Part shown: positions 453 through 12,621 of the stretch, piece after piece
How the letters are laid out: each line of letters begins with the position of its first letter
Numbering within the stretch: position 1 is the first letter of the stretch
From: Cyclobacteriaceae bacterium
GTDB taxonomy: Bacteria > Bacteroidota > Bacteroidia > Cytophagales > Cyclobacteriaceae
DNA: 48,569 bases
Assembly (NCBI GenBank): GCA_009885605.1
Contig: VFKK01000064.1
Coordinates: 1-48,569, forward strand
Direction of reading: 5' to 3'
Program-made: the position numbers and the translations under genes
The notes under the pieces: generated by a model
The model's input: only the letters and a program-made list of their open reading frames with translations
Told to the model about the DNA's origin: nothing
The model's database searches: none

Positions 453-2220
453 TTTTATTTTTTTCTGTAGGGATTAATCGCAAACTGTATAGTTCACCGA
501 CACCCTCGGGGTTAATATGTATTGCAGAAAGGGTGAGTTTATCCTCTCCTGAATTCAAGGTTATTTTTCCAAGGAGGGTTTTTTTCCAGGTTTGTTCAGG
601 AGCCTCTTTCCTTGGAACGCGGTCGGTACTGGCAATACGGCCAGGTTCAAAAGGCTCATCCAAAGCTTTGGACAAAATGGAATTGGATGTCTGGAGTATC
701 AGGGTTGCTCCGATTTGGGATTGATGGGCTGTGTATTCTATCCAAACTTCATAAACTCCCGCGTCTAGGACATCCAGACTCCAAGAGAGACTATCACTTT
801 CTTTTTTCCAATTTTTAACCCAATCTTGGGCCCATCCATGTCCTTCGAAAAAGCTTAACTCCCCGAAAAGCTGGCTTTCGTAGGCGGGCAGAATAATTTG
901 GTCAGATATTTTACTTATGGGAATTCTCCTTGTCATTGATATGTCCGAAGATATTTGTTGCCACCAATTTTTATAATCGCTTTCCATGGAAGAGACCAAG
1001 GCAGGATACGAAATGGCCAGGTTTTTTTTCTGCTCCGGATCGTTTTTCAGATCATATAATTCCAAACTCGAAGTAAGTAAAGAAAGCAGCAAAGAATCCT
1101 TTCTAAGAGCTCCCGGTCGGTCTTTGAGGACTTTGTCCAACTGCGCTACATGAGTGTAAATTGCTCTAGATGAAATCTCTTTTCCCTCAAACAGTGGAAC
1201 CAAAGAAATTCCATCCAGTGTCTTTTGGCCAGTGTTTTCCACTCCCAAAAAATCCACGATCGTGGGAAATATATCAATATGGGCTGCAGGAGAAGAAATA
1301 AGTCCGGGAGTGATCTTGCCAGGCCACTTCCAAAAACTTGGCACCCTGACGCCTCCTTCGTGAACAGAGCCTTTTATTCCTTTCATGCCAACATTGAATC
1401 GCTGGCCATTTGGGCCATTATCAGTTAAAAAAATAACCAAGGTGTTTTCCGTCAAATCCAATTCCTCCAACAAATCCAAAACACGTCCAACATTCTCATC
1501 TACATTACTAACCATTCCATAAATCGATGCAAGCTCGTCATCCAATCCTGCCTCTTTATAGGGCAGGAAATACTTATCTGGAACCTGATGAGGACTGTGA
1601 GGGGTATTAATCGACATGTAAGCGAAAAAGGGGTGCTCCTTGTTTTCTGTGATAAAGTCCATGGTCTCATTGGTAAGGATATCCGGTAAATATCCCTCGA
1701 AAGGCAATTCCTCTCCGTTTTTTTCCAAATGAGTATCAAAATAATTAGACCAATGCCCGGCAGCAAAACCGGTAAATTCCTCGAATCCTTGGCTGAGGGG
1801 ATGATTTGGGTGATGCTGTCCATTATGCCATTTTCCAAAAATCCCAGTGCTATAGCCTTGATCAAGTAACAGTTCCGCCAAGGTATATTCCTCCGAATCC
1901 ATAGTTTCCAGACCATTGGAGACAGACACTACCCCAGTCCGTAAATGATAACGGCCCGTCAGCAAACTAGCCCGGGTAGGAGCGCAAAGCGGACTGACAT
2001 AAAACCGTTCAAATCTTGCCGACTCTCTGGCCAGCTGGTCCAAATTGGGGGTTTTCACCCATTCATTTCCATGAATTCCTAAATCGCCATATCCTTGGTC
2101 ATCTGTTAGAATTAGCAGAATATTTGGCTTCGTTGGCGTTTCGGCGGATTTGCAGGAAAAAAGAAAAACTAATCCGCCAGCCAAAAGAAAAGAGAAGATT
2201 CTTTTTAGGAGAAAGCTCAT
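430..2220 (-). CDS. Arylsulfatase (S1 family, Cys-type), probable lipoprotein
   Basis: PNILLILTDDQGYGD, catalytic CAPTRASLLTGR (CxPxR), GKWH and DNG motifs; lipobox-like FLFSC. Confidence 0.93.
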   Translation of the reverse strand: MSFLLKRIFSFLLAGGLVFLFSCKSAETPTKPNILLILTDDQGYGDLGIHGNEWVKTPNLDQLARESARFERFYVSPLCAPTRASLLTGRYHLRTGVVSVSNGLETMDSEEYTLAELLLDQGYSTGIFGKWHNGQHHPNHPLSQGFEEFTGFAAGHWSNYFDTHLEKNGEELPFEGYLPDILTNETMDFITENKEHPFFAYMSINTPHSPHQVPDKYFLPYKEAGLDDELASIYGMVSNVDENVGRVLDLLEELDLTENTLVIFLTDNGPNGQRFNVGMKGIKGSVHEGGVRVPSFWKWPGKITPGLISSPAAHIDIFPTIVDFLGVENTGQKTLDGISLVPLFEGKEISSRAIYTHVAQLDKVLKDRPGALRKDSLLLSLLTSSLELYDLKNDPEQKKNLAISYPALVSSMESDYKNWWQQISSDISMTRRIPISKISDQIILPAYESQLFGELSFFEGHGWAQDWVKNWKKESDSLSWSLDVLDAGVYEVWIEYTAHQSQIGATLILQTSNSILSKALDEPFEPGRIASTDRVPRKEAPEQTWKKTLLGKITLNSGEDKLTLSAIHINPEGVGELYSLRLIPTEKNKNDSKSLK

Positions 2221-2585
2221 TTTTTAAAGATAAAGTAAACTGCCAAAATCAGAAAAATCGCTCCGATCAGGTGATTCAGTTTGAGAGTTTCTGTTTTGAA
2301 AGCTATCAGGGTGAAAATCATGAAAACGACTAAAGTGATCACTTCCTGGATGACTTTCAATTCTACAAGAGAAAAAGGGCCTCCATTTCCGGAGAAACCA
2401 ATTTTGTTAGCGGGAACCTGAAACATGTATTCGAAAAGTGCGATTCCCCAGCTGATTAAGATAACTGAAACGATTCCCAGCTTGTTAAACCAGTTCCACT
2501 CGGCAAACTTCAAATGACCGTACCAAGCAAGCGTCATAAAACTATTGGAAAGGACAAGTAAACCGATGGTGAGGAGTGCTTTCAT
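2217..2585 (-). CDS. DMT superfamily small membrane protein (DUF486-like)
   Basis: SNSFMTLAWYGHLK, SWGIALFEY..QVPAN.IG and LKVIQEVITL motifs; ATG at 2585 preferred over the track start at 2615. Confidence 0.85.
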   Translation of the reverse strand: MKALLTIGLLVLSNSFMTLAWYGHLKFAEWNWFNKLGIVSVILISWGIALFEYMFQVPANKIGFSGNGGPFSLVELKVIQEVITLVVFMIFTLIAFKTETLKLNHLIGAIFLILAVYFIFKK

Positions 2586-2664
2586 AGACGAGGATTTTAA
2601 TTCTCGAATTTGCAAAAAAGGCAGATCACCTCAAGTAAGTTTTATGATACCGAATCTTAAAAAA

Positions 2665-2910
2665 TCAACTTGATACATCTCGGAAAGATGACTTTTTGTA
2701 ATTTTTATAAAGCCCAATTACTATCAAAATAATGGATGGCCAAAAAGTGAGACCTGCCATCATTCCAAAAATCACAGGATTTGGATTGGGGTCATCACCA
2801 AACCCAAGAGCCGCTAGACTAATAGTAACTATCAAAGGTCCGCTCCCAATTATTAAAAGAACTAATCCAACAATCAACAAGACATTCTTTTTAGTTTTAG
2901 GGTTCACCAT
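2665..2910 (-). CDS. Small two-TM membrane protein, function unknown
   Basis: Two hydrophobic helices around DDPNPNP; ATG at 2910 preferred over 2961. Confidence 0.7.
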   Translation of the reverse strand: MVNPKTKKNVLLIVGLVLLIIGSGPLIVTISLAALGFGDDPNPNPVIFGMMAGLTFWPSIILIVIGLYKNYKKSSFRDVSS

Positions 2911-3005: not shown

Positions 3006-3152
3006 TTAAAAAATAATCTGACACATCTCTTCCGGCTTCCTGACCTAAACCTATAGGATTTTGAATTTCTTCAGATCTAAGTTTTCACGGAATATTTAGA
3101 AACATTGATTTTTTTGGAACTCAGCTTGTGCCTTCAGCAATTTGGGGTTTTC
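3006..3152 (-). pseudogene. radA: Degenerate duplicate of the radA 3' end
   Basis: Direct repeat of 5578-5724. 63/74 identity over the first 74 nt, including 23 identical nt (3057-3079 = 5629-5651); CAG>TAG stop and small indels. Confidence 0.93.
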
Positions 3153-3169
3153 CAGTAAATGTGCTAGCG

Positions 3170-4111
3170 TTAGAGGCCTGTAGTTTTTCTTATATGCTTA
3201 ATCAAATTCCCCCGTTTTCCCCACGCAAGGAAAAAACGCAACTCTGAAGGATGAATGGCTAATTTTTTTAAAACCCAGTCCAAAGGATATCCGGCTAATC
3301 GTTTGATCAACAGTTTTGGATTAAAGAACAACTCCTGCTGCAGTTTTTTATGAGCGAAAATTGCAGCCATTTCATACATTTTCGCTTTAAAAAGACTGTC
3401 ATTCAGTTTATTGAAAAAAAATTCATGTTCAAAACTTGATTTCTTTTTATAGGAGTCTTTTCTTTCTCCGCTTAAGATCACCAAAACACCCGTACGGGTT
3501 GGGAAATGGAATTTGACACCTGAATTCCAGGCTCTGAAAAGCCATTCCTGTGACGGGGTAAAATAAAGGTCTTTCTCCATTTTCCACGGTCCGATTTGGT
3601 CCACAGTGCTCCTCTTGAAAAACCAGCAAGAAGCGACACTAAACACATTACTTGAAAAGTTTCCATTTGGATGAACACTCACCAGATGGGCCTCAAAATT
3701 TTCCTTAATGAGGTCTTCGTGTTTGACAGGCGGAATTTTTAGACCTGGGACTACCAGGAATTCTACCTTATTTATTTCCAGTTCAGAAATACAATTGGCG
3801 AGGTGTGAGGGAAAATACATATCATCCTGATTCAGGAAGGCAACGTATTGTCCCGTCGCCAGTGTTAATCCTACATTGTTGGGCTTGGCCTGTTGTCCGC
3901 TATTTTCTTCCAGATTGATAAACCTGATCCGGTCGTCCAGGAAGGAAGACACACACTCGGCAGTATCATCAGTGCAACAATCCCCAACCACGATTATTTC
4001 CCAATGTGAATAATCGGAATCCATCACACTCTGAATGGCAAATTTCAACAGATGGCTGCTGTTGTACGTGGCTATGATGATTGAAACCAGAGGATTTTCC
4101 AAGCGAATCAT
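3170..4111 (-). CDS. Glycosyltransferase family 2
   Basis: VSIIIATYN, EIIVVGDCCTDDT and YVAFLNQDD GT-A motifs. Confidence 0.9.
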   Translation of the reverse strand: MIRLENPLVSIIIATYNSSHLLKFAIQSVMDSDYSHWEIIVVGDCCTDDTAECVSSFLDDRIRFINLEENSGQQAKPNNVGLTLATGQYVAFLNQDDMYFPSHLANCISELEINKVEFLVVPGLKIPPVKHEDLIKENFEAHLVSVHPNGNFSSNVFSVASCWFFKRSTVDQIGPWKMEKDLYFTPSQEWLFRAWNSGVKFHFPTRTGVLVILSGERKDSYKKKSSFEHEFFFNKLNDSLFKAKMYEMAAIFAHKKLQQELFFNPKLLIKRLAGYPLDWVLKKLAIHPSELRFFLAWGKRGNLIKHIRKTTGL

Positions 4112-4112
4112 T

Positions 4113-5342
4113 TTAATCGATGCCTTCTAATCTATCGGCTACTTTCACCGCCAAATAGGGGATCAGGGTGTATTTACCCGTATTTACAGAATGGTAATTA
4201 GTGAAAGTTCTTATTCCTACTTCATGTCGCGTGTGGAGTTTACTTTCGTGTTTGTCCACATCTGTGTTGCCAAGGGCAAATATTACTCCGCCTACAGGAC
4301 TAACGTCTTCCGGACTGAATTTCAAATTATCCAAAGCAGGAATTCGGTTTGATAACTCCTTGAAGCTCCTCAAAAAAATGTCATCCCGTTCAGAATCAGA
4401 ATACATCTGATCCCATTCAGGCGGTCTGTCTTGTTCCGACCATCCCGTTCTTCCTATCGGGTACCAAGACATAAATGCCCCTTTTCCCTTGAAATTCACA
4501 GTGTCTCCAAAGGGACCCTGAACCATTGTGCAGGAAGGTAATTCATCCGATTTCAAGGGAATGAGGATCTTATTTCCAAATTTATATCGATGTGACCAGG
4601 AATTAATAGGCTCAATTCCCATGGTTCTGTCAATTTCAAGAAGTCCGTTCCAAGTAGAATTAACCACGTCCGTATACACTTCTTCCATTTTTATTTCTTC
4701 TCGGGTACTGCTGACTTTAAGTTTTGAGTCAATTTTCGAGACTGAATTAACTCTTGTATTGACCATCAAATTGATGGATGTAGTCGCCAGTAAGGCCGCT
4801 GTCAATTTTTCTGCGATGGTTCTGGGTTCTACGGAATATTCTGTCGTCGAGAAAACGTCATCGATATATTCAGGATTGACAATTCCATCAATCTTGGTTC
4901 GTGGCAGAAGCGAGGCATCGATAGTATCAAATAGGTCCAAGTACTTCTTTTTATAAAAAGTTTTGGCTTCGCCGTAGAAATCAATACACTTTTGGTAATG
5001 AGGCGCAAGTTCCTCGGCATTCATCAAGGATCCTTTATGAATGCAATAATTAAAAGGTGTTGAGATTACTTCTTCCGGATTTATCTCTACCCATCTTTTC
5101 AGGTTTGAAATGAAATGCAGTGCGCCGATAATCATTTCCCGGGAGGTGTGAAACTCCTTGTCCATCGCATAGATAAACCCCAGATGAATCTTTCCCTCAT
5201 TCACAAAACTGGCTTTTTTAATTGGCTCTGAGTGTTCTTCGTAGAGGTCTACTTGGTACCCGCGCTGCGAAAGTTCTAATGCCAGGCATGCTCCTAAACC
5301 GCCTGCTCCTAAGACGGCGATTTTACGGTTGATTTTATTCAA
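4113..5342 (-). CDS. FAD-dependent oxidoreductase (DAO/L-2-hydroxyglutarate oxidase-like)
   Basis: Rossmann IAVLGAGGLG...LYE, ASFVNEGKIHLG, C-terminal TGKYT; TTG start. Confidence 0.82.
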   Translation of the reverse strand: MNKINRKIAVLGAGGLGACLALELSQRGYQVDLYEEHSEPIKKASFVNEGKIHLGFIYAMDKEFHTSREMIIGALHFISNLKRWVEINPEEVISTPFNYCIHKGSLMNAEELAPHYQKCIDFYGEAKTFYKKKYLDLFDTIDASLLPRTKIDGIVNPEYIDDVFSTTEYSVEPRTIAEKLTAALLATTSINLMVNTRVNSVSKIDSKLKVSSTREEIKMEEVYTDVVNSTWNGLLEIDRTMGIEPINSWSHRYKFGNKILIPLKSDELPSCTMVQGPFGDTVNFKGKGAFMSWYPIGRTGWSEQDRPPEWDQMYSDSERDDIFLRSFKELSNRIPALDNLKFSPEDVSPVGGVIFALGNTDVDKHESKLHTRHEVGIRTFTNYHSVNTGKYTLIPYLAVKVADRLEGID

Positions 5343-5577
5343 ATTAGGAAGATTTAATTTTTTGAAGGAAAAGTAGCAATTAACTGGTAATAAGTAGGAA
5401 TTGGAAGCTTCCCAAAAATCTAAAAATTAGAGTAAGGCCTCAGCCGAAAACACATAATCCATTTGCTTGCAGGCTTTTGACTAATTAAAAAATATACTCT
5501 TCTTGATTCAAATAAAAATTTAATTAGCTTCTTCATTTAGGATTTTTAAGTCAGGAGAAAAATATTTTCAAATCTGA

Positions 5578-6951
5578 CTAGAAAATGATCTGATACATCT
5601 CTTCCAGCTTGCTGACCTGAACCACCACGATTTTGAATTTCTTCAGATCTAGGCCTTTGACGGCATATTTGGAGACGATGATTTTTTTGAAACCAAGCTT
5701 TTCGGCCTCGGCGATTCGGTTTTCGATTCTCGATACGGCGCGTATTTCTCCGCCAAGTCCAACTTCACCCGCAAAGCAAATCTGCTCCGAAACAGGAGTA
5801 TCCTCGTAGCTGGAAATCAGCGACGCACAAACCGCCAGATCCAATCCCGGATCATCTACGCGTAGTCCTCCAGCCACGTTCAGGAATACATCCTGCTGAC
5901 CAAGTCGCATTCCTCCACGCTTCTCCAAAACTGCCAATAGCATATTCAATCGCTTTGCATCGTGTCCGGTGCTGCTTCGCTGAGGTGTACCGTAAGTTGC
6001 CGGGCTCACGAGTGATTGGATCTCGATCAGAAGTGGTCTGTTTCCTTCCATCATGGCTCCGATCGCGACTCCGTTCAGTACTTCCTCTCGTTGCGTAAGC
6101 AAAATCTCAGAAGGATTTGCGACAGGACGAAGACCTTCGGCCCGCATCTCGTAGATTCCAAGTTCGTGGGTAGATCCGAAACGGTTTTTGGAAGTGCGTA
6201 GGATTCGGTACGTCAGATGTCTATCACCCTCAAACTGCAGAACGGTGTCCACCATATGCTCCAGGACTTTCGGGCCGGCGATCGAACCGTCCTTTGTAAT
6301 ATGGCCAATCAGGAAAACCGGAACGCCCGTTTCCTTGGCAAATTTCATGAGTTCGGCGGTGCATTCCCTGACCTGTGAGACAGATCCGGCCGCCGATTCC
6401 ACATATTGGCTATTCAGTGTCTGGATCGAATCGATGATCAAAAAATCAGGATTCAGGATTTCTATTTGTTGAAAAATCTGCTGGGTGTTGGTTTCGGAAA
6501 GCACATAGCAATCCTCATTTTTGGCGGACATCCTATCTGCCCGCATTTTGATTTGGGCTTCACTTTCCTCCCCCGATATGTAAAGAACCTTCTTTCCTCT
6601 AAGTGTCAAAGCAATCTGAAGCATGAGAGTAGATTTTCCGATTCCAGGTTCGCCTCCGATCAGAACCAGCGATCCCGGGACGATCCCTCCTCCCAAAACC
6701 CGGTCGAGTTCTGCATCTTTGGTTTCCCAGCGGGGTTGAAGATCATAGTTAACGTCTTGGATTTTTTGGGGTGTATTTGCTTTTTTGGTTGTGTTGGAAC
6801 TTGGCTTCCAGCTTCCTTTGCCTGAATCTTCCTTTTGAACGATTTCTTCCACATAGGTATTCCATTCTCCGCAGGAGGAACATTTGCCCAGCCATTTCGG
6901 GCTTTGTGCTCCGCAGTTTTGACAGAAAAAGGTGGTTTTTACTTTAGCCAT
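5578..6951 (-). CDS. radA: DNA repair protein RadA/Sms
   Basis: C4 zinc finger CQNC..CSSC, Walker A GEPGIGKST, KNRFG motif, Lon-like C-terminus. Confidence 0.98.
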   Translation of the reverse strand: MAKVKTTFFCQNCGAQSPKWLGKCSSCGEWNTYVEEIVQKEDSGKGSWKPSSNTTKKANTPQKIQDVNYDLQPRWETKDAELDRVLGGGIVPGSLVLIGGEPGIGKSTLMLQIALTLRGKKVLYISGEESEAQIKMRADRMSAKNEDCYVLSETNTQQIFQQIEILNPDFLIIDSIQTLNSQYVESAAGSVSQVRECTAELMKFAKETGVPVFLIGHITKDGSIAGPKVLEHMVDTVLQFEGDRHLTYRILRTSKNRFGSTHELGIYEMRAEGLRPVANPSEILLTQREEVLNGVAIGAMMEGNRPLLIEIQSLVSPATYGTPQRSSTGHDAKRLNMLLAVLEKRGGMRLGQQDVFLNVAGGLRVDDPGLDLAVCASLISSYEDTPVSEQICFAGEVGLGGEIRAVSRIENRIAEAEKLGFKKIIVSKYAVKGLDLKKFKIVVVQVSKLEEMYQIIF

Positions 6952-6955
6952 TCTT

Positions 6956-6987
6956 GAAATACGAGGGACAAATTACGAAATACGAGG
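6956..6987. promoter_or_regulatory. Direct repeat GAAATACGAGG x2 upstream of radA, candidate operator
   Basis: Identical 11-mers at 6956-6966 and 6977-6987 (21 bp period); the function is inferred. Confidence 0.4.
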
Positions 6988-7031
6988 AATAAGGATTTGG
7001 GAACCTCTTTCCCATTCCTCATTTTAAATTT

Positions 7032-9857
7032 TTAATGTGCTTCCAGCCAATCGTTACCGACTCCAACTTCCACTTCAAGCGGTACGGCTAATTTGATGGC
7101 ATTGGTCATGAGTCCGGGAATGTTTGCTTTCAGGATTTCCACTTCATCCTTGTGCGCATCGAAGACCAATTCATCATGTACCTGGAGGATCATTTTGGAC
7201 TTGAGGTTTTCCTTTTTCATCCAGTCGTGCACATGAATCATGGCAACTTTGATCAGATCGGCTGCGGATCCCTGAAGCGGCGCGTTGATTGCATTTCGCT
7301 CTGCGAAACCTCTCATGGTCTGATTTCGACTGTTGATATCACGCAGGTAGCGGCGACGTCCAAGGATCGTCTCGACAAATTCGTTTTTGCGTGCTTTTTC
7401 GATTGCTCCGTCCATGTATTGTTTCACTGCCGGAAACTCTTGAAAATAGGCATCGATGATTTCTTTTGCTTCTGTCCTTGGAATCCCGAGTCTCTGCGAA
7501 AGTCCGAATGCGGAGATACCGTAAATAATCCCAAAATTGGCTGTTTTCGCCTTTCTTCTCATATCACTCGTCACCTCTTCCAATGGAAGCTTGAAGATTT
7601 TTGCTGCGGTGGTGGAGTGGATATCCCGACCTGTTTTGAAAGCCTCGAGCATGGATTCATCGCCGGAGAAGGCGGCCATTATTCGAAGTTCGATTTGGGA
7701 GTAATCGGCAGAGAGTAGCACATGATTTTCATCTCTCGGCACAAATGCCTTTCGGATTTCTCTTCCTCGAGCAGTTCGGATTGGGATATTTTGAAGGTTT
7801 GGATTGACCGATGAAAGCCGTCCAGTTGCCGCGACGAACTGATTGTAGGTGGTATGAATTCTTCCGGTTTTTGGATTGATCATGGTAGGAAGCGCATCAA
7901 CATACGTTGATTTCAGTTTTACCATTTGTCGGTAATCCAGAATTGCTTCTGCGATTGGATGCTCGATAGCAAGTTTGCTCAGGATTTCTTCGCCGGTTGC
8001 ATACTGCCCGGTTTTAGTCTTTTTTGCTTTGGGATCAAGTTTCAGCTTTTCGAAAAGTACCTCGCCCAATTGCTTTGGTGAACCCAAATTAAATCTCACT
8101 CCTGCCAGTTCGTACACATGCTTTTCAATTTCCAGACTCTCCTTTTGCAAAAGAGTGGAAAGCTCCGCCAAACTGGAGGTATCAATCCGAACGCCTTCAA
8201 ATTCCATTTCGGAAAGAACATTGATCAGCGGATTTTCGACTTCGTTGAATAGCTTCACCAGATTATTTTCTTTTAATATCGGGTCAAACTTTGCTTTAAG
8301 CTGGAGTGTGATATCGGCATCTTCCGAGGCGTAGGCGGTCACTTCGTCTTCCTCCACATCCCGCATATTTCCCTGATTTTTTCCCTTTTTCCCGATCAAT
8401 TCCGTGATGGATACAGGTTTGTAATTCAGGTATTGCTGGGCCAGCCAATCCATCGAATGCTTCCCTTCAGGCTCGATGAGGTAGTGAGCAAGCATGGTAT
8501 CGTAGAGTGTTCCTTTGATATCGATCCCGTAGTTCTTCAGGACTAAGAGATCGTATTTGATGTTTTGGCCTATTTTGACAATTCCCGGATTTTCAAAGAG
8601 AGGACGAAGGATTTCCAGGATTTCCTGAGTTTCTTTTCTGTCTTCGGGACAAGGAATGTAATAGGCTTCGCCCGTGATGTAGGCGAAAGAAATCCCAACC
8701 AAATCAGCTTGCATAGCGTCAAGTGAAGTCGTTTCGGTGTCGAAGCAGATTTCTTTTTGAAGTAAAAGATAGCTTAGCAATTCCTTGACAGCATCCTCAC
8801 CTTTTATCTTATGATAATTGTGAATATTTGAAAGAATCGTTTCATAAACGGGCTCAGGCCCTACGTTCACGGTTTCCTCCTCAAATTCGGATTCCGCAAC
8901 CGGGGCAGATGCTGCTGCAGGAGCTCCAAACAATCCCAGTTGTTCGGGTTTTTGGATCGTTGCTTTTTTGCTCGGCTCTTTAAAAATCCTGCTTGCCAAA
9001 GTTCGGAATTCAAGTTCGGAGAAAAGCGCCCGAAGCTTTTGCTCATCTATTCCGTCAATAATCAGTTCGCTGTGGACAAAGCCAATTGGAACGTCCGTTT
9101 TGATGGTAGCGAGTTCTTTGGAAAGAAGACCCTGCTGAGCAAAGTTTTCCACATTTTCCTTCTGCTTTCCTTTTAGCTTTTCTGTGTTTTGAAGGAGGCC
9201 CTCGACAGATCCAAATTCCTTTAAAAGTTTGGTAGCAGTTTTTTCGCCGATTCCCGGAATTCCGGGGATATTATCCACCGCATCACCCATCAAGCCGAGA
9301 ATGTCCCGCACCTGATCCACATGCTCGATATCCCATCGGGCACAAACCTGCTTTGGCCCCATGACCTCTACACCGTTGCCCATGAAGGCTGGCTTGTACA
9401 AGAAAATATGGTCATCGACAATTTGACCGAAATCTTTATCAGGTGTCATCATGTACACGGTGAAGTCTTCCTTTTCAGCTTTCTTTGCCAAAGTACCGAT
9501 GATATCGTCCGCTTCGAATCCATCCATTTCTAAAATTGGAATGTTAAAAGCCCTGACAATTTCTTTTACCCAAGGGATCGAAACCGTAATATCTTCTGGT
9601 TGGGAAAGCCGATTTGCTTTGTATGGTTCATATTGGATATGCCGGAAAGTTGGGGCAGAAGTGTCAAAAGCTACCCCAATATGGGTAGGTTTTTCCTTTT
9701 CTAGTACCTCAAGTAAGGTGTTGGTAAACCCCAACATGACTCCCGTGTTGAGGCCTTTAGAGTTGATACGAGGGTTCTTGCTGAAGGCAAAATGAGCCCT
9801 GTAAATCAGGGCCATGGCATCTAGTAAAAAAAGCTTATACGCTTGTTTTTGGGACAT
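7032..9857 (-). CDS. polA: DNA polymerase I
   Basis: 5'-3' exonuclease (FEADDIIGT), 3'-5' exo domain (FDTETT), PolA motifs DYSQIELR, KTANFGIIYG and QVHDE. Confidence 0.99.
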   Translation of the reverse strand: MSQKQAYKLFLLDAMALIYRAHFAFSKNPRINSKGLNTGVMLGFTNTLLEVLEKEKPTHIGVAFDTSAPTFRHIQYEPYKANRLSQPEDITVSIPWVKEIVRAFNIPILEMDGFEADDIIGTLAKKAEKEDFTVYMMTPDKDFGQIVDDHIFLYKPAFMGNGVEVMGPKQVCARWDIEHVDQVRDILGLMGDAVDNIPGIPGIGEKTATKLLKEFGSVEGLLQNTEKLKGKQKENVENFAQQGLLSKELATIKTDVPIGFVHSELIIDGIDEQKLRALFSELEFRTLASRIFKEPSKKATIQKPEQLGLFGAPAAASAPVAESEFEEETVNVGPEPVYETILSNIHNYHKIKGEDAVKELLSYLLLQKEICFDTETTSLDAMQADLVGISFAYITGEAYYIPCPEDRKETQEILEILRPLFENPGIVKIGQNIKYDLLVLKNYGIDIKGTLYDTMLAHYLIEPEGKHSMDWLAQQYLNYKPVSITELIGKKGKNQGNMRDVEEDEVTAYASEDADITLQLKAKFDPILKENNLVKLFNEVENPLINVLSEMEFEGVRIDTSSLAELSTLLQKESLEIEKHVYELAGVRFNLGSPKQLGEVLFEKLKLDPKAKKTKTGQYATGEEILSKLAIEHPIAEAILDYRQMVKLKSTYVDALPTMINPKTGRIHTTYNQFVAATGRLSSVNPNLQNIPIRTARGREIRKAFVPRDENHVLLSADYSQIELRIMAAFSGDESMLEAFKTGRDIHSTTAAKIFKLPLEEVTSDMRRKAKTANFGIIYGISAFGLSQRLGIPRTEAKEIIDAYFQEFPAVKQYMDGAIEKARKNEFVETILGRRRYLRDINSRNQTMRGFAERNAINAPLQGSAADLIKVAMIHVHDWMKKENLKSKMILQVHDELVFDAHKDEVEILKANIPGLMTNAIKLAVPLEVEVGVGNDWLEAH

Positions 9858-10941: not shown

Positions 10942-12621
10942 ATGGAAAGAAAAAATAGATTTCGCTCGGGACCTTTTATTGCAATTGGAGCGATATCCTG
11001 TCTGGCTTTGGGATTCACTTTTGGAAAAAGAGCAGGCGAAATCACGCCTCCTGCCATTGATGCTGCGGGAGATTTGATCGGATTGACTTTTTCCCCTGCG
11101 GAAAAAGACAGCATGATCAGCACGCTGAAAAATCAATTGGGAAATATTGAGACCTCCAGAAAAACCACGTTGGATAATTCCGTTGCTCCGGCTTTGATTT
11201 TCAATCCGCTGCCCATGGGCTTCCAACCCGATCAGGAGCAAAAAGCATTTGATTGGGGTATGAAAGGCCAGGTTACCCTGCCTGAAAAAGAATCAGATAT
11301 CGCCTACATGCCGGTGCATGAGCTTGCGGTTTTGATCAAAAACAAGCAAATCACAAGCGAGCGCCTGACCAAAATCTACCTTGAACGTATCAAGACGTAT
11401 TCCGATACGCTTCAGTGTTTGATTACGTTGATGGAAGATTCTGCTTTGGCAAAAGCCAAACTGATGGATCAGGAATTGGCAGCAGGAAAATACAGAGGAC
11501 CACTTCATGGAATTCCTTACGGCATCAAGGACTTGCTTGCAGTCAAGGGCACCAAAACTACCTGGGGAGCTACTCCCTACAAAGATCAGGTGATCGACGA
11601 GACTGCTACTGTAGTGAATAAATTGAATGATGCAGGGGGAGTTTTGGTCGGGAAATTCACCCTCGGTGCACTTGCAATGGGCGATGTATGGTATGGAGGA
11701 GTAACTAAAAACCCCTGGAATCTCGAGCAAGGCGCAAGTGGATCTTCCGCAGGATCTGCTTCAGCTGTGAGTGCCGGCTTAGTACCTTTTGCAATCGGTA
11801 CGGAAACGCTTGGTTCGATAGTATCTCCATCTACCCGAAATGGTGTAACAGGCCTGCGACCGACATATGGTCGGGTAAGTAAGCATGGCGCAATGGCCTT
11901 AAGCTGGTCCATGGACAAAATTGGACCGATTTCCAGATCTGCTCTTGACAACGGAATCGTGCTTTCAGTCATCAACGGTGCCGATGTAATGGACGCCAGT
12001 ACAATCGCTGCAGCATTTAATTACTCTGTGAAAAATGATCCGAAGAAACTTAAAATAGGATATTTCAAGCCTTACTTCGAAGGTGACAGACCTACTCTTG
12101 CCAATGATAAAAAGGTCTTGGAAGTTCTCGAAAGTCAGGGTTTTGAACTGCATCCCCTGGAACTTAAAACTTCCGTACAAGCAGGTCCGATCGTGATGAT
12201 GCTGATGGTGGAGGGAGCAGCTGCATTTGATGAATTGACAAGATTGGGATGGGACGATCAAATGGTAGCTCAGCATCGCAACGCCTGGCCAAATCTATTT
12301 CGGGCTGCCAGATTTATTCCTGCGGTGGAATACGTGCAGCTTAGCCGTCAGAGAAGCGTCCTGATCAAGGAAATGCATGAGCTGATGAAGGAATATGATG
12401 TGATTGTGACCCCTAGCTTTGGAGGAGCACAATTGCAGATTACAAACCTAACGGGACATCCTGCGTTGTGCCTGCCAAATGGTTTTGCTGCCAATGGAAG
12501 CCCCACCTCAATTACGCTTTTGGGAAATCTTTTCGAAGAAGAAAAGCTGGTGATGCTGGGTCATATGATCCAGCAAAACACAGATTGGCAGGCGAAAAGA
12601 CCACCTATGTTTGACAAGTAA
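10942..12621 (+). CDS. Amidase signature family enzyme with N-terminal signal/TM segment
   Basis: GPLHGIPYGIKD (catalytic Lys), SGSSAGSA, IGTETLGSI and GLRPTYGRVS; ATG at 10942 preferred over 10918. Confidence 0.93.
   Translation: MERKNRFRSGPFIAIGAISCLALGFTFGKRAGEITPPAIDAAGDLIGLTFSPAEKDSMISTLKNQLGNIETSRKTTLDNSVAPALIFNPLPMGFQPDQEQKAFDWGMKGQVTLPEKESDIAYMPVHELAVLIKNKQITSERLTKIYLERIKTYSDTLQCLITLMEDSALAKAKLMDQELAAGKYRGPLHGIPYGIKDLLAVKGTKTTWGATPYKDQVIDETATVVNKLNDAGGVLVGKFTLGALAMGDVWYGGVTKNPWNLEQGASGSSAGSASAVSAGLVPFAIGTETLGSIVSPSTRNGVTGLRPTYGRVSKHGAMALSWSMDKIGPISRSALDNGIVLSVINGADVMDASTIAAAFNYSVKNDPKKLKIGYFKPYFEGDRPTLANDKKVLEVLESQGFELHPLELKTSVQAGPIVMMLMVEGAAAFDELTRLGWDDQMVAQHRNAWPNLFRAARFIPAVEYVQLSRQRSVLIKEMHELMKEYDVIVTPSFGGAQLQITNLTGHPALCLPNGFAANGSPTSITLLGNLFEEEKLVMLGHMIQQNTDWQAKRPPMFDK

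What the first reader, a model, noticed from the sequence alone, without database searches (positions are those of the whole stretch)
3006..5724. Two-gene insert (FAD oxidoreductase + GT2) bracketed by radA and a dead copy of the radA tail
Seen: a ~147 bp direct repeat of the radA 3' end (63/74 identical near the stop, with an in-frame stop and indels) begins about 17 bp after the GT2 stop. The ~2.4 kb between the copies holds only two cargo genes and no recombinase. Inference: the insert entered at the radA 3' end and supplied a new tail. The repeat is longer than most att cores and is diverged, which favours homologous capture from a related donor or an old eroded island.
Basis: partly seen in the sequence, partly recalled or inferred. 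Interest (0 to 1): 0.75.

Follow-up and report, generated by a model that had tools for sequence, protein, structure and literature searches.

The report
Stacked gene-capture scars behind radA
In a freshwater Algoriphagus bacterium, two accessory genes sit between the DNA-repair gene radA and a dead copy of its last 146 bases, with a second, smaller insert and scar right behind; this likely records ordinary one-sided recombination with DNA from related species, a known kind of scar rather than a new mobile element.

Summary
Window 3007-3152 repeats the radA tail (5579-5724): 114/143 identical, two in-frame stops, indels, 17 nt after the GT2 stop. An independent metagenome contig spans both copies.

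In the genus, 10 of 92 radA loci carry echoes of 17-261 nt around unrelated cargo. Echo and live tail differ mostly at silent sites (16/18 in G121). Relatives show both parent layouts: radA-FAD-GT2 without echo (8 genomes) and empty radA-DMT (G010). The trmB gene in this genome shows the same three layouts. No integrase lies between these repeats.

Best reading (0.68): homology-facilitated illegitimate recombination. Donor DNA recombined in radA and its far end joined back inside the host's radA tail. The echo probably stays recombinogenic.

A donor origin of this window's live tail was not shown: the event is old and no breakpoint was detected. The structure matches 'insertion with long target duplication', and this scan has noted the same scar class in other genomes (rps11, uvrB, rpoD, gyrA, accC, another radA). 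New member of a known kind.

The parts
5578..6951 (-). radA/sms, intact, 457 aa; last gene of the polA-radA pair; the homologous anchor
   Evidence: TIGR00416 608.6 bits, cut-off 403; ORF list
5579..5724 (-). live radA tail, the 146 nt that are repeated
   Evidence: alignment
5343..5577 (-). AT-rich spacer between radA and the FAD gene; homologous to the G036 spacer, while G002 and G106 have only about 40 nt
4113..5342 (-). FAD-dependent oxidoreductase, DAO/GlpD-like fold, 409 aa (TTG start); cargo gene 1; substrate unknown
   Evidence: PF01266 E 6e-11; model pLDDT 95; Foldseek hits to GlpD/GlpO, glycine and sarcosine oxidases at 12-15% identity
3170..4111 (-). GT2 glycosyltransferase, 313 aa; cargo gene 2; paired with the FAD gene in distant bacteria
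   Evidence: PF00535 E 4e-23; neighbours in metagenome loci
3153..3169 (-). 17-nt linker ending at the inferred illegitimate junction; same junction position in G002 and G125
3007..3152 (-). echo 1: dead copy of the last 146 nt of radA (80% identical, two in-frame stops, indels); inferred displaced host tail
2665..2910 (-). 81-aa small hydrophobic ORF without a Pfam family; cargo of the second capture; its last codons run into echo 2; a homologue follows radA directly in G006
2586..2656 (-). native radA-DMT spacer; aligns loosely with the spacer after radA in the empty-site genome G010
2217..2585 (-). DMT-family (DUF486) gene, 122 aa; native downstream neighbour of radA
   Evidence: PF04342 E 1e-40; first gene after radA in 6 of 92 loci

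Best explanation
The FAD and GT2 genes lie between intact radA and a dead 146-nt copy of its end, and they likely arrived by one-sided recombination: DNA from a related Algoriphagus that already had radA-FAD-GT2 would have recombined homologously inside radA, while its far end would have been joined illegitimately back into the host's radA tail. That leaves radA whole and pushes the host's old tail and its downstream genes behind the cargo. An 81-aa ORF with a 25-nt echo marks a second, probably earlier, capture of the same kind. Once formed, the echo likely serves as a right-hand homology arm, so the unit can spread to empty sites by ordinary double crossover and the echo gets patched with live-tail sequence. 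Shown: the anatomy, the parent layouts in relatives, the variable echo lengths and the silent-site excess. Inferred: the recombination route, which copy is the donor's in this window, the order of the two captures, and the reuse of the echo.
For: (1) Echo starts vary: about -17 (G095), -24 (G000 echo 2), -37 (G091), -80 (G077), -143 (G023), -145 (G000/G002/G125), -153 (G145), -261 (G121). The short-echo scan gave 10 plus-strand hits at score >=16, against 0 on the minus strand and 0 with four control radA windows, over 1.03 Mb.
(2) Cargo is unrelated between cases: FAD+GT2, a restriction-modification pair, an MscS-domain gene, two unknown ORFs, a 20-kb block.
(3) Echo and live tail differ mainly at silent sites, where about 20% is expected: G121 16/18, G023 5/6, G145 9/13, G125 4/5, G002 12/23, G000 14/29. 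In the young pairs this means both copies were working alleles.
(4) Both parents exist. After each echo the DNA continues as after radA in an insert-free relative: G002 like G010, G095 like G111 (93%), G145 like G091, G121 like G067, G023 like G107. Donor layouts without a detected echo: radA-FAD-GT2 in 8 genomes, radA-MscS in G063, radA-ORF81 in G006.
(5) In G095 the first 21 nt of the donor's DMT gene sit directly before a 17-nt echo.
(6) radA switches ancestry far upstream of the echo in G023 (nt 487, 3% to 14% divergence from G107) and G145 (nt 730, 9% to 16% from G082); 0 of 300 permutations reached either.
(7) trmB shows the same three layouts: kinase plus echo in G000, G125, G106, G010; empty in G002, G036; kinase without echo in G107.
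(8) Reuse of the echo: the G125 echo's 5' half is 100% identical to its own live tail although four-fold sites in radA and polA differ by 0.35-0.49 between these species; genomes with the same junction differ in what follows the echo; runs X7 and X17 (two studies) hold an echo variant with a 37-nt live-tail patch.
Against: No breakpoint was found in G000's own radA (p 0.12, 0.27, 0.74), and two other echo carriers (G095, G121) show the opposite polarity against their nearest empty relative. No close echo-free donor of this FAD allele was found; the best outside the clade is 68% nt. In the old pairs (G000, G002) the silent excess could come from the live copy evolving after duplication. Three independent junctions fall within -153..-143, and a weak 5/6 dyad flanks the -145 junction. 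Short echoes may be eroded long ones, as in G106. HFIR as described usually deletes host DNA rather than duplicating it, and it is rare (PMC3240628, introduction). Genomes are one per species, so kin are not independent.
Confidence: 0.68

Rival explanations
1. A linear donor fragment (radA tail plus cargo) was circularised by end-joining and then integrated by a single RecA crossover in the radA tail (Campbell type). This gives the same direct repeat.
For: It gives variable repeat lengths without an integrase. Circularisation followed by single crossover is a described fate of linear DNA in E. coli (PMC3240628 abstract). The G000 and G002 echoes are more decayed at the 5' end than at the 3' end.
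Against: It does not explain ancestry switches 500-740 nt upstream of the echo start in G023 and G145. Echoes of 17 and 25 nt are short for a RecA single crossover (recalled minimum about 25 nt), unless they are eroded.
Confidence: 0.14
2. The repeat is the attL/attR pair of a tyrosine-integrase element that targets the radA 3' end and carries a replacement tail. The element lost its integrase or was mobilised in trans.
For: A tyrosine integrase (PF00589 + PF13495; TIGR02249 212 bits, below the 265 cut-off) is the first gene after radA in 6 of 92 loci. Three junctions cluster at -153..-143 with a weak dyad. Integrase elements also supply replacement tails, which would give silent differences.
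Against: Junctions spread from -17 to -261. In G145 and G077 the integrase lies after the echo, outside the repeat. The 201-nt tail search found no second copy in G015, G024, G131, G069 or G144. The dyad is not kept in G023 or G145. G000 (75% complete) has one PF00589 gene, 29% identical to that integrase. The same layout occurs at trmB.
Confidence: 0.12
3. The cargo was always behind radA in this lineage, and the echo is an intragenomic duplication of the radA tail that then decayed.
For: FAD+GT2 follow radA in scattered lineages and may be old there. Cargo GC (41-42%) equals the genome's (42.2%). Four-fold distances of FAD and GT2 within the clade are close to those of core genes.
Against: After the echoes the sequence continues with the native post-radA spacer of insert-free relatives. 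Young echoes differ from live tails almost only at silent sites. Close relative G010 lacks the cargo.
Confidence: 0.06

Closest known systems
Homology-facilitated illegitimate recombination (HFIR) in S. pneumoniae, A. baylyi, P. stutzeri and E. coli; seen in PMC3240628 (abstract, introduction). The two 2002 primary papers were not held.
   Same: One homologous anchor, one illegitimate junction, no dedicated recombinase, small gains of about 1-3 kb.
   Different: Described products usually lose host DNA of similar size. Here the junction falls inside the anchor gene, so its end is duplicated. RecA dependence and junction microhomology could not be tested.
Insertion with long target duplication (Furuta et al. 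2010, PMC2853133; passages and introduction read; the earlier H. pylori study is its ref. 37, not read)
   Same: Insert under 20 kb, long and variable target duplication over 30 bp, no mobile-element genes, empty-site relatives. The G023 case even carries a restriction-modification pair.
   Different: That class was defined for RM genes and linked to DNA breakage. Here the cargo is metabolic, the repeats are diverged alleles of a core-gene tail, and captures stack.
3'-end displacement arrays (V. cholerae T6SS effector-immunity arrays, Rhs orphan tails; PMC5361080, passages)
   Same: Successive HFIR-like insertions push older 3' parts downstream and build an array.
   Different: There the anchor is a toxin gene and the displaced parts are functional. 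Here the anchor is a housekeeping gene and the displaced tails are dead.
Integrase-free HGT hotspots turned over by homologous recombination in flanking core genes (Oliveira et al. 2017, PMC5635113; passages)
   Same: 41 different first-gene clusters after radA among 92 loci; mosaic radA.
   Different: That model uses double crossover in two core genes and leaves no repeat; the echoes record the one-sided step.
Tyrosine-integrase islands that target protein-gene 3' ends, and their integrase-less remnants (CIMEs) (recalled)
   Same: Direct repeat of a gene tail; target gene kept intact.
   Different: No fixed crossover point, no integrase inside the repeat, several target genes.

Membership tests
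HFIR product | Homologous anchor on one side, with donor DNA adjacent to the same gene | tested here: met
   Donor layouts radA-FAD-GT2 (8 genomes without a detected echo), radA-MscS, radA-ORF81, trmB-kinase
HFIR product | Crossover inside the anchor gene (mosaic radA) | tested here: inconclusive
   Found in G023 and G145 (0/300 permutations); not in G000 (p 0.12-0.74); opposite polarity in G095 and G121
HFIR product | Illegitimate junction at variable positions | tested here: met
   Echo starts from -17 to -261; some short ones may be eroded
HFIR product | 3-10 bp microhomology at the junction | tested here: inconclusive
   Needs the exact donor flank, which was not sampled for this allele
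HFIR product | RecA dependence; uptake of linear DNA | not testable with these tools
   A ComEC-family gene is present, but so it is in 10 of 14 control genomes, including E. coli
Insertion with long target duplication (Furuta 2010 criteria) | Insert <20 kb, duplication >30 bp, no mobile genes, empty site in a relative | tested here: met
   2426-nt insert, 146-nt repeat, G010 empty
Insertion with long target duplication (Furuta 2010 criteria) | Cargo includes R and M genes | tested here: not met
   Cargo here is FAD oxidoreductase + GT2; met only in G023
Tyrosine-integrase island / CIME | Integrase between the repeats, or a cognate one in the genome | tested here: not met
   None in the insert; one PF00589 gene in the 75%-complete genome, 29% identical to the radA-adjacent integrase
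Tyrosine-integrase island / CIME | Fixed crossover site with a conserved inverted-repeat core | tested here: not met
   Variable junctions; the 5/6 dyad at -152 is not kept in G023 or G145
Tyrosine-integrase island / CIME | Excised circle or empty site in the population | tested here: inconclusive
   No such joint in 8 runs laid, all contigs, which drop rare forms
Integron | IntI above the family cut-off, attI and attC sites | tested here: not met
   No integrase at this locus; the integrase in relatives scores 212 against 265 for TIGR02249; attC sites were not searched

The most novel reading that the evidence does not exclude
The radA 3' end of Algoriphagus works as a recombinase-free, integron-like push-down stack. 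Each one-sided capture leaves a tail echo, and the echo then acts as a reusable homology arm that lets the cargo spread between species and accept new cargo, with likely read-through expression from polA-radA. The same logic runs at other core genes such as trmB.
Probability: 0.35. Interest if true: 0.55.

Novelty: new member of a known kind. Interest (0 to 1): 0.32.

Why it matters
Many gene-gain hotspots have no integrase, and the first step that seeds them is rarely visible. Here one genus shows donor, empty and captured layouts side by side at two core genes, plus stacked scars. That makes it a tidy natural test case for one-sided capture and for whether dead gene tails help cargo spread. 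The mechanism class itself is known and this scan has met it many times, so the value is as a well-documented example, not a new system.

Tried and rejected
- Family-wide search with the RadA C-terminal 90 aa over 401 genomes was uninformative for echoes: most genomes gave a second match, probably Lon, and 645 matches were not listed.
- An ungapped 18/30-nt weight-matrix scan missed echo 2 because of its 1-nt insertion; the gapped scan replaced it. Four score-15 hits (G023, G107, G124, G146) were dropped: three lie inside called ORFs and the minus strand gave as many hits at that score.
- Composition: cargo GC 41.0% and 41.7% against 42.2% for the genome, so no sign of a distant origin.
- Promoter and terminator scans were at chance level; no terminator was found after radA. 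Read-through is untested.
- Reads: 8 runs laid, all contigs; no empty-site or circle joint, which does not show absence. One 22-nt joint in X2 (3419 to 6344) was set aside as too short.
- The genome-contig scan with the single FAD protein returned 1 locus, the G002 contig.
- ORF81 DNA search: 2 of 123 genomes; its homologues in G006 and G032 came from protein clustering.
- Sequence search of solved structures gave only two weak N-terminal hits; the fold search names no substrate.
- Literature searches listed no paper on radA-tail duplications in Algoriphagus or Bacteroidota; only listings were seen, and subscription journals are mostly missing. PMC3784515 (passages) concerns large tandem duplications between IS repeats and was set aside.
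- The far ends of the integrase-led regions in relatives were not mapped for short att cores.
- The C24 repeat near gatC was first read as a head echo; its identity is unresolved and it is not counted.
Full report
Observation. The window is contig C101 of a 75%-complete genome. Its relatives are named Algoriphagus by the databases. On the minus strand the order is polA, radA (5578-6951; TIGR00416), a FAD oxidoreductase (4113-5342), a GT2 (3170-4111), then 17 nt and a copy of the radA end (3007-3152 against 5579-5724). The copy has 114 of 143 aligned bases identical, two in-frame stops and single-base gaps. It is the only significant second match in the genome (E 1e-27; next 0.11). A 3110-nt contig from run X2 spans both copies with 3 differences.

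Behind the echo comes an 81-aa ORF (2665-2910) whose last codons run into a second, 25-nt radA-end echo (2657-2681). After it lies a spacer that aligns loosely with the spacer following radA in G010, and then the DMT gene. The short-echo scan used 89 radA ends against 93 downstream stretches (1.03 Mb). It gave 10 plus-strand hits at score 16 or more, 0 on the minus strand, and 0 with four control windows of radA. So the locus reads radA | FAD, GT2 | echo 1 | ORF81 | echo 2 | DMT.

The genus. The radA tail matched in 106 of 123 genomes. I fetched the region for 91 of the 105 relatives and analysed 92 loci with the window's own; downstream lengths ranged from 0.7 to about 28 kb. The first gene after radA falls into 41 protein clusters. 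FAD is first in 14 loci, DMT in 6, a tyrosine integrase in 6. Echoes occur in 10 of 92 loci: G000 (two), G002, G125, G106 (24-nt remnant), G023, G145, G121, G077, G095 and G091. They start at about -17, -24, -37, -80, -143, -145, -153 and -261 and, apart from G091, reach the last codons of radA. The cargo is unrelated between cases: FAD+GT2, HindVP-like endonuclease plus C5 methylase (G023), an MscS-domain gene (G145), two unknown ORFs (G121), and a 20-kb block (G077). Of the 14 FAD-first loci, 5 have an echo after GT2, 8 have none detected, and 1 (G036) ends inside FAD.

Which copy is which. After each echo the DNA continues as it does after radA in an insert-free relative: G002 like G010, G095 like G111 (93% from -16 on), G145 like G091, G121 like G067, G023 like G107. 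The echo is therefore at the host's original position. Donor layouts exist too: radA-FAD-GT2 without echo, radA-MscS in G063, radA-ORF81 in G006. In G095 the first 21 nt of a DMT gene sit between GT2 and a 17-nt echo, which I read as captured donor flank. Echo-versus-live differences are mostly silent in all 6 pairs tested: 16/18, 5/6, 9/13, 4/5, 12/23 and 14/29, against about 20% expected (p 0.007 to 3e-9). In the young pairs this means two working alleles met. In G000 and G002 it could also reflect later evolution of the live copy. The breakpoint test covered 8 pairs. The predicted switch from host-like to foreign appears in G023 (nt 487) and G145 (nt 730). The opposite polarity appears in G095, G121 and weakly G002, and there is nothing in the three G000 pairs. 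So a donor origin of this window's live tail is inferred by analogy only.

Not radA-specific. A self-comparison of the genome gave 56 direct-repeat pairs, most of them paralogous domains, tRNAs or intergenic repeats. Two others duplicate a gene end: trmB on C57 (99 nt, 95%) around a hybrid histidine kinase, and a 157-aa ORF on C214 (134 nt, 86%). At trmB, among 11 loci examined, G000, G125, G106 and G010 have kinase plus echo, G002 and G036 are empty, and G107 has the kinase without an echo; G029 and G035 show other, short-range echoes.

Age and reuse. FAD and GT2 of G000, G002, G125 and G106 form clades, and their four-fold distances (0.28-0.57) are near those of polA and radA (0.35-0.49), so the capture is old. 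G000, G002 and G125 share the junction. Yet the G125 echo's 5' half is 100% identical to its own live tail, and the genomes differ in what follows the echo. Runs X7 and X17, from two studies at depth 9 and 3.6, hold an echo variant with a 37-nt patch identical to the live tail plus 11 other letters. By my reading of those tables, the patch lacks both stops and reads in frame as RadA-like residues. G036 shares G000's spacer and first 40 FAD codons (86%) but has a different FAD allele beyond (48-67%). I infer continued homologous exchange, with the echo serving as a right-hand arm. This is not shown directly.

Integrase rival. The radA-adjacent integrase is real (PF00589 + PF13495; below the integron cut-off). 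It lies outside the repeat in G145 and G077, has no close homologue in G000 (29%; one PF00589 gene found), and five of its six carriers show no second copy of the 201-nt tail. In its favour, three independent junctions lie within 10 nt and a weak dyad flanks -145, but the dyad is not conserved. I give this rival 0.12.

Cargo. The FAD protein was found in 30 of 123 genomes of the genus, at radA and at a second locus. Its best database relatives are 54-89% identical and, where named, Algoriphagus or Cyclobacteriaceae; the rest are 50% or less, from other phyla. The model (pLDDT 95) has a GlpD/glycine-oxidase-type fold at 12-15% identity. A GT2 match lies beside it in 40 of 80 metagenome loci by tblastn (35 clear, 5 weak; many contigs are short), and Pfam finds GT2 next to several others. 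The pair likely makes or modifies a glycan or glycolipid; the substrate is unknown.

Known systems. The structure meets Furuta et al.'s size criteria for insertion with long target duplication but lacks RM cargo (PMC2853133; passages and introduction). The mechanism matches HFIR (PMC3240628; abstract, introduction and start of methods), with the junction inside the anchor. Stacking resembles T6SS/Rhs displacement arrays (PMC5361080; passages). The hotspot fits Oliveira et al. (PMC5635113; passages). Five searches listed no report of this locus. Earlier notes of this scan describe the same scar class in other genomes; none was found for this genome. Those notes are unchecked and are not counted as support. 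No supplementary files were consulted.

Verdict. Real, well explained by one-sided homologous capture (0.68), a new member of a known kind. Interest 0.32.

Noticed in passing
window 2657-2910: Second radA-end echo (25 nt) overlapping the end of an 81-aa ORF; two stacked captures.
   Followed up: yes
L112 (G000:C57:6621-6719 and 9248-9345): trmB tail duplicated (99 nt, 95%) around a 7TM-DISM hybrid histidine kinase; empty, donor and captured layouts exist in relatives.
   Followed up: yes
L113 (G000:C214:5318-5450 and 6961-7092): End of a 157-aa ORF plus downstream DNA duplicated (134 nt, 86%) around a 386-aa ORF without a Pfam family.
   Followed up: partly
L114 (G000:C24:8368-8462 and 11055-11151): 95-nt repeat (79%) bracketing acyltransferase, globin and NfeD genes next to gatC; source of the repeat unresolved.
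   Followed up: partly
G000:C130:8872-9191 and 11589-11909: 322-nt non-coding direct repeat (87%) around three genes.
   Followed up: no
L065:2809-4119, also L019, L023, L076, L098, L104: Tyrosine integrase with an N-terminal extension directly after radA in 6 loci, followed by variable cargo; far ends not mapped.
   Followed up: partly
L034 (G077), 250-8900 nt after radA: 20-kb insert starting with an OLD-family ATPase/TOPRIM gene and a UvrD helicase (Gabija-like, label recalled), a group II intron reverse transcriptase and an IS21.
   Followed up: no
L012:3942-5942 (G023): [quoted passage not shown]
   Followed up: partly
L027 (G030), 380-2550 nt after radA: FAD and GT2 genes are broken into pieces.
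   Followed up: no
L074 (G073): radA appears frameshifted after about codon 344; may be a sequencing error.
   Followed up: no
L053-L056: The FAD+GT2 pair sits at a second locus, beside an HrpB helicase, in G066, G065, G024 and G145.
   Followed up: partly
G000:C218:2815-2942 and 3297-3423: Two similar tRNA-like copies (87% over 128 nt) separated by 25%-GC DNA.
   Followed up: no
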